A stretch of DNA of 64,000 nucleotides from Escherichia coli (lineage in GTDB: Bacteria > Pseudomonadota > Gammaproteobacteria > Enterobacterales > Enterobacteriaceae), in NCBI RefSeq assembly GCF_003334305.1, contig NZ_QOWS01000001.1, one strand, 5' to 3'. Position numbers and translations under genes: made by a program. The notes under the pieces are model-generated. The model saw only the letters and a list, made by a program, of their open reading frames with translations, was not told where the DNA came from and did not search any database. Below, piece after piece: positions 61,835 through 63,073 of the stretch. Every line of letters begins with the position of its first letter. The first letter of the stretch is position 1.

Positions 61835-61944
61835 ATATTCATCCCTGAAATGTATTAATGAAATAAACGATATTTTACGCGCAATAAATGTTTGGCGCAT
61901 TAGTTGTTTGAGCAAAAAATATCTGGAAAGCAGATCGCAGTAAA

Positions 61945-62028
61945 TAAAAAAACCTGCTGGTGAGGCAGGTTCTTTTATTTACTATTTTCAGGCCTAACAC
62001 CACAGCCTGTGCAACATCGTGTTCCAAC
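61945..62028 (-). ncRNA. Candidate antisense sRNA antitoxin (OrzO/OrzP-type), about 84 nt
   Basis: Minus-strand TTGCAA-17 bp-TATAAT promoter (-10 at plus 62035-62040); predicted 5' end near 62028; strong terminator (AACCTGC-loop-GCAGGTT then TTTTT on minus); first ~20 nt complementary to the toxin leader at 62175-62194. Confidence 0.6.
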
Positions 62029-62034
62029 GAACGA

Positions 62035-62085
62035 ATTATAACCACGGCTGGACCCCGTTGCAATTAAGATAATGAGATTTATAAT
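62035..62085. promoter_or_regulatory. Back-to-back sigma70-like promoters sharing one palindromic -35 hexamer (toxin mRNA rightward, antisense sRNA leftward)
   Basis: Shared TTGCAA at 62058-62063; plus-strand TATAAT at 62080-62085 (16-bp spacer); minus-strand TATAAT at 62035-62040 (17-bp spacer). Confidence 0.55.
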
Positions 62086-62266
62086 CCAGACCGTTGGGAC
62101 GTTGCGCCGGATCGAACCTATTTCAAGTCCTGGCTACCGGACGGGGGGTGCTGCAGGTGGTGCCCTGATCCGGAGTGCAACATCGTGGTCCAACATACGT
62201 AAACCAGTATCGACAGGCAGTGTAAGGGTAAGGTGCTGGTGTTGCGCTCCTTAATAAGGAGAGCGG

Positions 62267-62356
62267 ATGGACTCGCTGACACAAAAGTTAACCGTGCTCA
62301 TTGCTGTACTGGAGCTATTAGTGGCTCTGTTACGGTTGATTGATTTGTTGAAGTAA
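62267..62356 (+). CDS. zorO/zorP: 29-aa hydrophobic peptide, type I toxin candidate (ZorO/ZorP-type)
   Basis: ATG 62267, AAGGAG 5 nt upstream; MDSLTQKLTVLIAVLELLVALLRLIDLLK, one predicted TM helix with charged ends; about 174-nt leader from the predicted start near 62093. Family name is from memory; which copy is zorO and which zorP is not resolved. Confidence 0.75.
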   Translation: MDSLTQKLTVLIAVLELLVALLRLIDLLK

Positions 62357-62377
62357 CGGGCAAATTGAAACGCATCT

Positions 62378-62402
62378 AAGGGGGAAAACCGCTTCCCCCT
62401 TT
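62378..62402 (+). terminator. Terminator hairpin of toxin mRNA copy 1
   Basis: AAGGGGGAA-aaccgc-TTCCCCCTT perfect 9-bp stem 22 nt after the stop; short U-tract. Confidence 0.5.
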
Positions 62403-62554
62403 AATAAAATGATTACTGTTTTTATTAATTCATCATATAACTCATTTTTATTTATAAATTCATCGATTTTATATTCAACGCACCATTTGACCGGGATGTG
62501 AATATTTATGTTGGGCTATTGGCAAAAAATATCTGGAAAGTAGATCGCAGAAAA

Positions 62555-62636
62555 TAAAAAAACCTGCTGGTGAGGCAGGTTCTTTTATTTACTACAGTGA
62601 CGCTAACTTGCTGATTGTGCAACATTTCGTACCAAC
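62555..62636 (-). ncRNA. Candidate antisense sRNA antitoxin, copy 2 (OrzO/OrzP-type), about 82 nt
   Basis: Minus-strand -10 TATAAT at plus 62643-62648 and shared -35 TTGCAA at 62666-62671; terminator 62561-62581 with U-tract; 5' region complementary to the copy-2 leader at 62783-62802. Confidence 0.6.
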
Positions 62637-62642
62637 GAATAA

Positions 62643-62693
62643 ATTATAACCATATCCACACTCCATTGCAATTCAGTGAGTGAGATTTATAAT
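62643..62693. promoter_or_regulatory. Back-to-back promoters of copy 2 sharing a palindromic -35
   Basis: TTGCAA at 62666-62671; plus-strand TATAAT 62688-62693; minus-strand TATAAT at plus 62643-62648. Confidence 0.5.
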
Positions 62694-62874
62694 CCTGCCC
62701 GTTGGGAGGTTGTGCCGGATCGGACCAATTTTAAGTCCTGGCTGCCGGACGGGTGGTGCCGCAGGCGGTGCCCTGATCCGGAGAGCAACGTTTCGTACCA
62801 ACATACGTAAACCAGTATCAACAGGCAGTGTAAGGGTAAGGTGCTGGTGTTGCGCTCCTTAATAAGGAGAGCGG

Positions 62875-62964
62875 ATGGACACGCTGACACAAAAGTTAAC
62901 CGTGCTCATTGCCGTACTGGAGTTATTAGTGGCTCTGTTACGGTTGATTGATTTGTTGAAGTAA
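62875..62964 (+). CDS. zorO/zorP: 29-aa hydrophobic peptide, type I toxin candidate copy 2 (ZorO/ZorP-type)
   Basis: ATG 62875 with AAGGAG upstream; MDTLTQKLTVLIAVLELLVALLRLIDLLK, differing from copy 1 only at residue 3 (S to T). Confidence 0.75.
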   Translation: MDTLTQKLTVLIAVLELLVALLRLIDLLK

Positions 62965-62985
62965 CGGGCAAATTGAAACGCATCT

Positions 62986-63010
62986 AAGGGGGAATACCGT
63001 TTCCCCCTTT
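62986..63010 (+). terminator. Terminator hairpin of toxin mRNA copy 2
   Basis: AAGGGGGAA-taccgt-TTCCCCCTT stem. Confidence 0.5.
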
Positions 63011-63018
63011 AAGAAAGC

Positions 63019-63073
63019 TATACTCGTCATACTTCAAGTTGCATGTGCTGCGACTTTAATTATCTAGAGTATA
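63019..63073. repeat. Truncated ERIC-like element abutting the yehK 3' end
   Basis: TATACTCGTCATACTTCAAGTTGCATGTGCTGCG ... AATTATCTAGAGTATA: ERIC terminal arms with the central part missing. Confidence 0.55.

What the first reader, a model, noticed from the sequence alone, without database searches (positions are those of the whole stretch)
62245..62269. Shine-Dalgarno of the toxin ORF lies in a perfect anti-SD/SD palindrome
The sequence gcgCTCCTtaataAGGAGagcgg places the AAGGAG ribosome-binding site directly opposite an upstream CTCCT, so the site is predicted to be locked in a local hairpin in the primary transcript. The same sequence is present in copy 2 at 62853-62877. Type I toxin mRNAs are commonly translationally inert until processed or refolded, and this hairpin would provide that block.
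Basis: partly seen in the sequence, partly recalled or inferred. Interest (0 to 1): 0.5.

Follow-up and report, generated by a model that had tools for sequence, protein, structure and literature searches.

The report
Known ribosome-site hairpin of zor toxins

Summary
The sequence GCGCTCCTTAATAAGGAGAGCGG occurs exactly twice, at 62244-62266 and 62852-62874. That is 1-3 nt off the stated coordinates. In each copy CUCCUU pairs with the AAGGAG Shine-Dalgarno site (6 bp, 3-nt loop), 5 nt before the ATG of a 29-codon ORF.

- Rfam OrzO-P hits score 99.9 and 88.8 bits.
- The copy-2 ORF is identical to the published ZorO peptide.

Wen, Harp and Fozo (2017) already showed by RNase T1 and lead probing that this ribosome-binding site sits in a stem. 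They showed that disrupting the stem boosts translation. They also showed the stem is unchanged in the active, 5'-processed (delta28) mRNA. Processing instead exposes an upstream region (EAP, +73..+102), which is the proposed ribosome standby site and the OrzO target. The full-length mRNA is still translated in vitro.

My folding agrees: pairing probability is 0.94-0.97 in the full-length mRNA and 0.85-0.94 in delta28. Homologues from at least five genera keep both arms invariant while the loop varies.

This is already known and of low interest.

One untested extra: the anti-SD strand has a conserved 10-11 bp complement inside the EAP, so the hairpin may take part in a switch (probability about 0.2).

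The parts
62058..62063 (.). Palindromic -35 hexamer TTGCAA shared by the divergent zor (copy 1) and orz (copy 1) promoters
   Evidence: Promoter scan: + strand 62058..62085 and - strand 62063..62035 use the same hexamer. -35 TTGCAA and -10 TATAAT are the elements named in PMC11264685.
62080..62085 (+). -10 TATAAT of the copy-1 toxin gene
61946..62028 (-). Orz antitoxin sRNA, copy 1 (OrzP-type). The 5' end is inferred from the -10 position.
   Evidence: Rfam RF02083 OrzO-P, 99.9 bits against a gathering score of 60, at 62021..61946. -10 ends at 62035. Duplex with the cognate leader is -40.2 kcal/mol.
62093..62405 (+). Copy-1 toxin mRNA (zorP-type). +1 is inferred as ATG minus the published 174-nt UTR.
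   Evidence: The published 174-nt UTR with RBS at +164..+169 (PMC5397157) puts AAGGAG at 62256-62261 when +1 = 62093, which is 7 nt after the -10.
62093..62120 (+). First 28 nt, removed in the processed (delta28) form. Pairs with the EAP in the primary transcript.
   Evidence: Helices +1..+5/+98..+102, +11..+13/+85..+87 and +15..+21/+75..+81: 99.4% of cells paired, 9 pairs with changes on both sides, 0/500 shuffles as good.
62165..62194 (+). EAP region (+73..+102): proposed ribosome standby site and Orz target
   Evidence: PMC5397157. Orz duplex maps to +83..+102.
62172..62182 (+). GGAGUGCAACA inside the EAP: conserved complement of the anti-SD strand (hypothetical 'helix X')
   Evidence: It contains the GGAGTG/AG motif whose GAG->CTC mutation lowers toxicity (PMC11264685).
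62203..62240 (+). Conserved stem-loop just upstream of the SD hairpin. The stem covaries; the 20-nt loop GACAGGCAGUGUAAGGGUAA is 16/20 invariant.
62240..62252 (+). Anti-SD strand: 5' flank UGUUGCG plus CUCCUU (62247-62252)
62253..62255 (+). Hairpin loop AAU (variable among homologues)
62256..62261 (+). Shine-Dalgarno AAGGAG (+164..+169)
62267..62356 (+). 29-codon toxin ORF MDSLTQKLTVLIAVLELLVALLRLIDLLK (ZorP-type, T3S relative to ZorO)
   Evidence: ZorP = T3S of ZorO according to PMC11264685.
62378..62401 (+). 3' stem-loop (terminator) of the copy-1 toxin mRNA
   Evidence: compensatory changes at 2 pairs.
62556..62636 (-). Orz antitoxin sRNA, copy 2 (OrzO-type)
   Evidence: RF02083, 88.8 bits at 62629..62556. 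18 contiguous bp with the copy-2 leader, -34.9 kcal/mol, matching the 18 nt published for OrzO-zorO.
62701..63013 (+). Copy-2 toxin mRNA (zorO-type). Every element lies at the copy-1 coordinate + 608.
   Evidence: Alignment A1 has no indels in the UTR or ORF. Promoter at 62666..62693.
62773..62802 (+). EAP region of copy 2
62855..62860 (+). Anti-SD CUCCUU of copy 2
62864..62869 (+). Shine-Dalgarno AAGGAG of copy 2
62875..62964 (+). 29-codon toxin ORF MDTLTQKLTVLIAVLELLVALLRLIDLLK, identical to the published ZorO peptide
   Evidence: PMC6669753.

Best explanation
The hairpin is the ribosome-binding-site stem of the zorP-type (copy 1) and zorO-type (copy 2) type I toxin mRNAs of E. coli.

The anti-SD CUCCUU lies 3 nt upstream of the SD AAGGAG. 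The stem can therefore form as soon as the SD leaves the polymerase and before the start codon is made. This lowers direct 30S binding and, by inference, co-transcriptional translation.

The stem is a constitutive damper rather than the switch. It is present both in the primary transcript and in the active form that lacks the first 28 nt. Control sits upstream:
1. In the primary transcript the first ~28 nt pair with the EAP region (+73..+102).
2. 5' processing frees the EAP, which promotes translation despite the closed SD. The published reading is that the EAP is a ribosome standby site that loads 30S subunits so they can capture the SD when the modest hairpin breathes.
3. The divergently encoded Orz sRNA pairs with the 3' part of the EAP, blocking this step and triggering RNase III-dependent decay.

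Shown experimentally by others for EDL933 zorO: SD in a stem in both mRNA forms, stem disruption raising translation, EAP exposure, OrzO inhibition.
Shown here: identity of the locus, thermodynamic prediction of the stem, its conservation across genera, and covariation of the 5'-end:EAP helices.
Inferred: the co-transcriptional role, and transfer of the zorO results to the identical zorP-type copy.
For: Identity of the locus:
- Rfam OrzO-P hits score 99.9 and 88.8 bits against a gathering score of 60.
- The copy-2 ORF is identical to the ZorO peptide. Copy 1 is the T3S ZorP variant.
- Promoters are TTGCAA/TATAAT.
- The published UTR length and RBS position (+164..+169) map exactly onto AAGGAG.
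- Cognate Orz:zor duplexes include 18 contiguous bp in copy 2.
- The locus is 100% identical to many E. coli chromosomes and lies between yehL and yehK.

The stem:
- It is in the MFE and centroid structures, with pair probabilities 0.94-0.97 (full length) and 0.85-0.92 (delta28).
- In 22 whole-mRNA folds of 11 homologous sequences (full length and delta28), the pairing probability is at least 0.85 in 19 and 0.44-0.64 in the other three.
- Local stability is -8.4 to -11.3 kcal/mol.
- RNAalifold keeps the stem.
- Both arms are invariant while the loop varies, and one homologue has a seventh C-G pair.

Published experiments (PMC5397157):
- T1 and lead probing show the RBS in a stem in both mRNA forms.
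- The delta82 'RBS' mutant, with the stem disrupted, is translated far better.
- Delta28 is translated more robustly than the full-length mRNA.
- OrzO inhibits translation through the EAP.

The 5'-end:EAP helices covary strongly.
Against: - The figure and supplement that show which nucleotides pair with the RBS were not readable here. That the published partner strand is the adjacent CUCCUU is inferred from folding.
- The experiments were done on EDL933 zorO, not on this strain or on the zorP-type copy. The hairpin sequence is identical in the two copies of this window, and the ZorO peptide matches copy 2; the EDL933 leader sequence itself was not compared.
- The arms never vary, so there is no true covariation for this stem. 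Invariance of the SD arm is expected anyway.
- Computed SD accessibility is not exceptional compared with 43 neighbouring genes, so thermodynamics alone predicts only a moderate block.
- Ribosome binding to the EAP has never been demonstrated (stated in PMC11264685).
Confidence: 0.85

Rival explanations
1. EAP as an anti-anti-SD (a four-region chain, as in attenuators). Region 1 is the 5' end, region 2 the EAP (GGAGUGCAACA, +80..+90), region 3 the anti-SD strand (UGUUGCGCUCC, +148..+158) and region 4 the SD. In the primary transcript 1:2 and 3:4 form, so the SD is closed. After the first 28 nt are removed, 2:3 can form by strand invasion and free the SD. Orz binding to region 2 puts region 3 back on the SD. 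On this reading the hairpin is one half of a switch and not a static damper.
For: - With the SD forced open, the anti-SD strand pairs with 62172-62178 in the copy-1 MFE.
- Copy 1 has an 11-bp helix.
- In all 12 homologues the best RNAduplex partner of the anti-SD strand anywhere in the upstream UTR is this same site. Energies are -14.2 to -19.2 kcal/mol. Shuffles as good: 0/200 in 5 sequences, 2-4/200 in 3, 14-19/200 in 4.
- There are seven different 5'-strand variants. 93.9% of cells are paired, against 30-62% when the partner is slid.
- Forcing the helix costs less after delta28 in 11/11 sequences.
- +80, +81 and +85..+87 are also used by the covarying 5'-end helix, so 1:2 and 2:3 are mutually exclusive.
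- The Orz target overlaps the helix.
- GAG->CTC in the GGAG motif lowers toxicity (PMC11264685). Delta82, which cuts the GGAG, is rescued by opening the RBS stem.
- There is a precedent: the timP site 2-4 interaction that opens the SD stem-loop (PMC13000454).
Against: - Published probing found the RBS stem unchanged in delta28 and the EAP lead-sensitive, meaning single-stranded.
- Whole-molecule folding gives P(GGAG:CUCC) of 0.14 or less. Among 22 whole-mRNA folds with the SD forced open, only 5 use this helix.
- The forced cost stays at 8-10.5 kcal/mol in the non-Escherichia homologues.
- The zorO-type copy has an A.G mismatch.
- Covariation is not significant against shuffles because the 3' strand is nearly invariant.
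- The helix was found on one of these sequences, which inflates the slid-partner control.
- The L013 homologue lacks the GGAG site but keeps the hairpin.
Confidence: 0.2
2. One reading: the SD hairpin is the block that keeps the primary transcript inert, and processing or refolding opens it.
For: The SD is paired in the primary transcript (PMC5397157). Many type I toxin mRNAs (hok, dinQ, aapA1) do work this way.
Against: - There is no structural change at the RBS between the full-length and delta28 mRNAs in probing.
- Predicted pairing stays at 0.85-0.94 after delta28.
- The full-length mRNA is translated in vitro.
Confidence: 0.08
3. A chance palindrome with no role. AAGGAG is conserved as the SD, and CTCCTT happens to lie next to it, or is conserved for another reason such as mRNA stability or pairing with the EAP only.
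For: - Perfect 6-bp hairpins are common (153 in the window).
- There is no covariation in the stem.
- SD accessibility is not an outlier.
- Neighbouring UTR segments are also highly conserved.
Against: - The anti-SD is invariant in at least five genera, while the loop between the arms changes in sequence and length and one copy adds a compensating C-G pair.
- Disrupting the stem raises translation (PMC5397157).
Confidence: 0.04

Closest known systems
zorO-orzO / zorP-orzP of E. coli O157:H7 EDL933 (Wen, Won and Fozo 2014; Wen, Harp and Fozo 2017)
   Same: This is the same system. It has the 29-aa toxin, a divergent Orz sRNA (Rfam RF02083), a 174-nt leader, RBS AAGGAG at +164..+169 in a stem, the EAP at +73..+102, and a tandem duplication between yehL and yehK.
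   Different: Nothing of substance differs. The strain is not EDL933 (the window is 100% identical to many other E. coli genomes). In this orientation the zorP-type copy comes first. In copy 1 the Orz pairing is 13 + 6 bp with one mismatch; in copy 2 it is 18 contiguous bp.
tisB-istR1 (E. coli): sequestered RBS plus a standby site exposed by 5' processing
   Same: The RBS is in a stable stem in both the primary and processed mRNAs. 5' processing exposes an upstream single-stranded region. The antitoxin sRNA binds there, far upstream of the RBS.
   Different: The tisB primary transcript is translationally inert, whereas full-length zorO is translatable (PMC5397157). tisB standby needs a pseudoknot and protein S1 (PMC7708055); no such element has been shown for zor.
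timP-timR (Salmonella and enterobacteria): SD stem-loop SL4 opened by a long-range interaction with its 5' flank (PMC11228461, PMC13000454)
   Same: A local SD-sequestering stem-loop of about -10 kcal/mol. An upstream sequence is complementary to the 5' flank and arm of that stem-loop. The sRNA acts on the upstream elements.
   Different: timP needs no ribonucleolytic processing, and its interaction is proven by compensatory mutants. For zor the equivalent helix is only a computational and comparative inference made here.
aapA1/aapA3-IsoA (Helicobacter pylori) and hok-sok: SD occlusion relieved by processing (PMC5416894, PMC6733600)
   Same: Anti-SD sequences sequester the toxin SD to prevent premature or co-transcriptional translation.
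   Different: In those systems the occluding structure (a 5'-3' long-distance interaction or transient local hairpins) is removed or replaced on 3' processing. In zor the local hairpin persists in the active form.

Membership tests
Zor/Orz type I toxin-antitoxin family | 29-aa hydrophobic toxin ORF of ZorO/ZorP sequence | tested here: met
   The ORF at 62875-62964 is identical to the published ZorO peptide. The ORF at 62267-62356 differs by T3S, which is ZorP.
Zor/Orz type I toxin-antitoxin family | Divergently encoded, non-overlapping sRNA matching Rfam OrzO-P (RF02083) above its gathering score | tested here: met
   99.9 and 88.8 bits against a gathering score of 60, on the - strand upstream of each toxin gene.
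Zor/Orz type I toxin-antitoxin family | The sRNA 5' end is complementary (15 nt or more) to the toxin 5' UTR about 60 nt upstream of the RBS | tested here: met
   RNAduplex gives 18 contiguous bp at +85..+102 in copy 2, and 13 + 6 bp at +83..+102 in copy 1. Cognate pairs are more stable than non-cognate pairs: -40.2 and -34.9 against -30.3 and -28.8 kcal/mol.
Zor/Orz type I toxin-antitoxin family | Promoters -35 TTGCAA / -10 TATAAT, and a 174-nt leader with RBS AAGGAG at +164..+169 | tested here: met
Zor/Orz type I toxin-antitoxin family | Toxicity on overexpression, with rescue by the sRNA that depends on RNase III | not testable with these tools
   Published for EDL933 zorO-orzO only (PMC3919570).
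Standby-type translational control (sequestered RBS plus an upstream site exposed by 5' processing; tisB-like) | The SD is in a stable local stem in both the primary and processed mRNAs | tested here: met
   Predicted p = 0.94-0.97 and 0.85-0.94. Published probing agrees.
Standby-type translational control (sequestered RBS plus an upstream site exposed by 5' processing; tisB-like) | The upstream region is sequestered by the 5' end in the primary transcript and freed by processing | tested here: met
   The 5'-end:EAP helices covary: 99.4% paired, 9 pairs with changes on both sides, 0/500 shuffles. The computed cost of opening the EAP falls from 16.5-17.6 to 13.1-14.0 kcal/mol in delta28. Published lead probing agrees.
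Standby-type translational control (sequestered RBS plus an upstream site exposed by 5' processing; tisB-like) | The 30S subunit binds the upstream site | not testable with these tools
   Not demonstrated for zorO either (PMC11264685).
   The SD:anti-SD probability stays at 0.85-0.94 in delta28. Published probing shows no change.
Long-range opening of the SD stem (timP site 2-4 type) | An upstream sequence is complementary to the 5' flank and arm of the SD stem, is conserved, and is required for translation | tested here: inconclusive
   Complementarity is present and conserved in 12/12 homologues. It is not favoured in whole-molecule folds. Whether it is required has not been tested.

The most novel reading that the evidence does not exclude
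The SD hairpin may be half of a four-region RNA switch rather than a static damper. The GGAG-containing 5' part of the EAP (+80..+90), once released by removal of the first 28 nt, would pair with the anti-SD strand and its 5' flank (+148..+158), displace it from the SD and activate translation. Orz would repress by occupying the EAP. This would reinterpret the proposed zorO 'standby site' as an anti-anti-SD, parallel to the timP site 2-4 interaction reported in 2026.
Probability: 0.2. Interest if true: 0.5.

Novelty: already known. Interest (0 to 1): 0.15.

Why it matters
As it stands, the finding re-discovers from raw sequence a published feature of a characterised toxin-antitoxin system, so it adds little.

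Three things from this check have some value:
1. The stem and the 5'-end:EAP helices are now supported by comparison across genera. The family was previously described only in E. coli and Shigella.
2. The stem is thermodynamically modest. This fits the published fact that the full-length mRNA is translatable.
3. The anti-SD strand has a conserved alternative partner in the EAP. If that pairing is functional, the zorO standby model would need revising, and zor and timP would share one mechanism. A four-construct mutagenesis experiment would test this.

Tried and rejected
- **Protein-based homologue searches.** The first degenerate DNA pattern had too few specified bases.
- **Supplement of PMC5397157.** The figures showing the exact RBS partner and the 'RBS' mutant are not held as text.
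- **First accessibility control.** It used crude first-ATG ORFs. I replaced it with 43 RefSeq-annotated gene starts.
- **Scan hits.** L005 (a Bacteroidota MAG) is a false positive of the pattern scan. L002 and L003 (Citrobacter) are too short to include the leader. L013 has a different sequence upstream of +84, so it could not be used for the EAP analysis.
- **Metagenome scan.** It added only 5 loci, and 3 of them match L012 in peptide, SD hairpin and EAP site.
- **Invariant-loop pseudoknot.** By eye I looked for a pseudoknot between the invariant loop (62212-62231) and the +35..+50 region. Only 4 bp (CAGG/CCUG) are possible, so I did not pursue it.
- **UAAGGG in the loop as the alternative partner of the anti-SD.** Six base pairs including one G.U are possible. 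RNAduplex and the constrained folds prefer the EAP site or a coding-region GGAG.
- **Terminator or attenuator reading of the hairpin.** Rejected: no U-run follows the hairpin, and the scan does not flag it.

Full report
**Observation.** The string GCGCTCCTTAATAAGGAGAGCGG occurs exactly twice in the window, at 62244-62266 and 62852-62874 on the + strand. The perfect inverted repeat is CTCCTT / AAGGAG, 6 bp around a 3-nt loop AAT. Outside it, one G.A mismatch is followed by two more pairs. AAGGAG lies 5 nt before the ATG codons at 62267 and 62875 of two 29-codon ORFs, MDSLTQKLTVLIAVLELLVALLRLIDLLK and MDTLTQKLTVLIAVLELLVALLRLIDLLK.

**Is it more than chance?** A perfect 6-bp hairpin is not rare: 153 occur in this window. 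Its position is unusual, though. Of 19 AGGAG-N4-10-start sites in the window, only these two have CTCCT within 16 nt upstream. The two copies belong to a tandem duplication. They are identical from about 60 nt upstream of the hairpin through the start codon and three codons into the ORF, so they count as one observation.

**Identity.**
- Rfam finds the OrzO-P antitoxin family (RF02083) on the - strand upstream of each ORF, at 62021..61946 (99.9 bits) and 62629..62556 (88.8 bits). The gathering score is 60.
- The copy-2 ORF is identical to the ZorO peptide synthesised by Otsuka et al. (PMC6669753).
- The copy-1 ORF carries T3S, the difference that defines ZorP (PMC11264685).
- Divergent sigma-70-like promoters with -35 TTGCAA and -10 TATAAT sit where the literature places them.
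- The published UTR is 174 nt. That puts +1 at 62093 and 62701, 7 nt after each -10. The published RBS (+164..+169) then falls exactly on AAGGAG, and the EAP (+73..+102) on 62165-62194 and 62773-62802.
- RNAduplex gives 18 contiguous base pairs between the copy-2 sRNA 5' end and +85..+102, as published for OrzO-zorO. Copy 1 has 13 + 6 bp. Cognate duplexes are stronger than non-cognate ones.
- The 1.2-kb segment is 100% identical to many E. coli chromosomes. It lies unannotated between yehL and yehK.

[quoted passage not shown] The finding's hairpin belongs to the zorP-type copy, and its 'copy 2' to the zorO-type copy.

**What is already published.** The source is Wen, Harp and Fozo (NAR 2017, PMC5397157).
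- They predicted that the zorO RBS lies in a stem and confirmed it by RNase T1 and lead(II) probing.
- The only major difference was the opening of +73..+102 (the EAP).
- Truncating the EAP (delta82) nearly abolished translation. Mutating the strand that pairs with the RBS rescued it and gave translation far above both delta82 and the full-length mRNA.
- Both the full-length and delta28 mRNAs are translated in vitro, delta28 more robustly.
- OrzO inhibits translation by pairing in the EAP, and it also triggers RNase III-dependent decay (PMC3919570).
- Shore et al. (mSystems 2024, PMC11264685) found the RBS AAGGAG conserved in 99.8% of 2,439 E. coli zor loci. They also showed that changing GAG to CTC in a GGAGTG/AG motif of the EAP lowers toxicity.

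The supplement and figures that show which nucleotides pair with the RBS were not available to me. That the partner is the adjacent CUCCUU rests on my folding.

**Folding.**
- ViennaRNA puts CUCCUU:AAGGAG in the MFE and centroid structures of both the 313-nt full-length and the 285-nt delta28 transcripts.
- Pair probabilities for the inner five pairs are 0.94-0.97 (full length) and 0.85-0.92 (delta28). The loop-closing U-A pair is at about 0.65.
- The isolated hairpin is worth -4.9 kcal/mol for the 6-bp core, -8.4 with the outer pairs and -10.6 in a 31-nt context. Homologous hairpins are worth -9.8 to -11.3.
- The block is moderate. Opening the SD zone (-14..-5) costs 2.6-6.4 kcal/mol, depending on context. 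The median is 4.67 for 43 annotated neighbouring genes of an E. coli O104:H4 chromosome. The -20..+13 footprint costs 13.5-15.5 against a median of 10.2, which is roughly the top fifth. This fits the published translatability of the full-length mRNA.

**Comparative evidence (new here).** A degenerate pattern for the C-terminal 10 codons found zor-like genes in Escherichia whittamii (three copies), two unnamed Escherichia species, Superficieibacter electus, Leminorella grimontii (two copies), a Pluralibacter MAG, Citrobacter sp. wls619 and a MAG labelled Bacillota. A metagenome scan added five more loci. I aligned 12 leaders (A2).
- Both arms of the hairpin are invariant (12/12). The loop varies: AAT, TAAT, TCAA, TTAC, TCAT or TTAA. 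One Leminorella copy reads CTCCTTC-ATA-GAAGGAG, with an added C-G pair.
- Overall 49% of UTR columns and 15/29 third codon positions are invariant. The anti-SD is 6/6, the SD 6/6, and the loop 1/3 plus two indel columns.
- The arms never vary, so there is no covariation proper for this stem. The argument is conservation of the anti-SD next to a drifting loop.
- RNAalifold keeps the stem.
- Folded separately as full-length and delta28 mRNAs, 11 homologous sequences (22 folds) give a pairing probability of at least 0.85 in 19 folds and 0.44-0.64 in the other three.
- The helices between the first ~21 nt and the EAP (+1..+5/+98..+102, +11..+13/+85..+87, +15..+21/+75..+81) covary strongly: 99.4% of cells are paired, 9 of 15 pairs have changes on both sides, and 0/500 shuffles are as good. 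This gives the published 'EAP is closed until processing' model a phylogenetic basis.

**Mechanism adopted.** The hairpin is a constitutive damper of translation initiation. Its anti-SD lies 3 nt from the SD, so it can close before the start codon is transcribed. From this I infer a role in preventing co-transcriptional translation, as argued for other type I toxins (PMC8594479). Regulation happens upstream, in three steps: the 5' end masks the EAP, processing unmasks it, and Orz re-masks it and triggers decay.

**An alternative that the data do not exclude.**
- When I forced the SD open, the anti-SD strand re-paired with GGAGUGC at 62172-62178 inside the EAP. The full complementarity is 11 bp in copy 1: GGAGUGCAACA (+80..+90) with UGUUGCGCUCC (+148..+158). 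Copy 2 has one A.G mismatch.
- In all 12 homologues this same site is the best duplex partner of the anti-SD strand anywhere in the upstream UTR. Energies are -14.2 to -19.2 kcal/mol. Dinucleotide shuffles as good number 0/200 in five sequences, 2-4/200 in three and 14-19/200 in four.
- Seven 5'-strand variants all stay pair-compatible: 93.9% of cells are paired, against 30-62% with slid partners.
- The helix shares +80, +81 and +85..+87 with the covarying 5'-end helix, and it overlaps the Orz target. That suggests a chain of alternative pairings, 1:2 / 2:3 / 3:4. Forcing the helix is cheaper after delta28 in 11/11 sequences.
- A proven parallel exists in timP, where an upstream site pairs with the 5' flank of the SD stem-loop to free the SD (PMC13000454). 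The discussion in PMC5397157 does not propose such a pairing for zorO.

Against this alternative:
- Published probing sees the stem unchanged and the EAP single-stranded in delta28.
- The predicted occupancy is at most 0.14, and only 5 of 22 SD-open folds use the helix.
- The cost stays at 8-10.5 kcal/mol in the non-Escherichia homologues.
- Covariation is not significant against shuffles.
- One metagenomic homologue lacks the site.

I put this alternative at about 0.2.

**Verdict.** The feature is the published RBS stem of the ZorO/ZorP toxin mRNAs, so it is already known and of low interest. The comparative support and the possible EAP:anti-SD pairing are the only additions.

Noticed in passing
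window 62212-62231 (copy 2: 62820-62839): The 20-nt loop GACAGGCAGUGUAAGGGUAA of the stem-loop just upstream of the SD hairpin is 16/20 invariant across at least five genera, while its stem (62203-62211 / 62232-62240) covaries. The loop carries two SD-like UAAGG motifs 26-45 nt upstream of the real SD. The zorO papers read here do not mention it. It could be a ribosome docking site or a tertiary contact.
   Followed up: partly
window 62172-62182 with 62240-62250 (copy 2: 62780-62790 with 62848-62858): There is conserved 10-11 bp complementarity between the GGAG-containing part of the EAP and the anti-SD strand plus its 5' flank. It is the best duplex partner in 12/12 homologues and is mutually exclusive with both the SD hairpin and the 5'-end:EAP helix.
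   Followed up: yes
window 62058-62063 and 62666-62671: The divergent zor and orz promoters of each copy share a single palindromic -35 hexamer, TTGCAA, which is read on both strands. RNA polymerase binding for toxin and antitoxin transcription may therefore be mutually exclusive.
   Followed up: no
window 62093-62113 compared with the sRNA 5' ends near 62028 and 62636: The toxin mRNA's own 5' end (GUUGG...GUUGC...) resembles the Orz sRNA 5' end (GUUGG...GUUGC...). It pairs with the same CCAAC and GCAAC elements of the EAP, so it acts like a built-in, cis-acting antitoxin until the first 28 nt are removed.
   Followed up: partly
loci L001, L006, L007, L011, L002/L003: Zor-like toxin genes with the same leader architecture occur in Superficieibacter electus, Leminorella grimontii (two loci), Pluralibacter and Citrobacter sp. 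wls619. This is wider than the 'E. coli and Shigella' distribution stated in PMC3919570.
   Followed up: partly
locus L012 4463-4787 (-); metagenome loci L015-L017 match it in peptide, SD hairpin and EAP site: A contig of a MAG labelled Bacillota carries a typical enterobacterial zor locus. This is probably a binning error and not a Gram-positive homologue.
   Followed up: no
locus L013 1-120: This metagenomic zor homologue has an unrelated leader upstream of about +84 (no GGAG or 5'-end elements) and reads AGCGAATG instead of AGCGGATG before the ORF. It still keeps the SD hairpin. It may be a rearranged or decaying copy.
   Followed up: partly
window 61850-63050: The whole zor-orz tandem is unannotated ('none') in the RefSeq PGAP records that match it at 100% identity, although both toxin ORFs and both sRNAs are intact.
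   Followed up: partly
window 62551-62616 (-): The Salmonella sRNA family STnc370 gives a sub-threshold Rfam hit (32.1 bits, gathering score 54) on the 3' half and terminator of the copy-2 Orz sRNA. This may be a distant relationship or only similarity between terminators.
   Followed up: no
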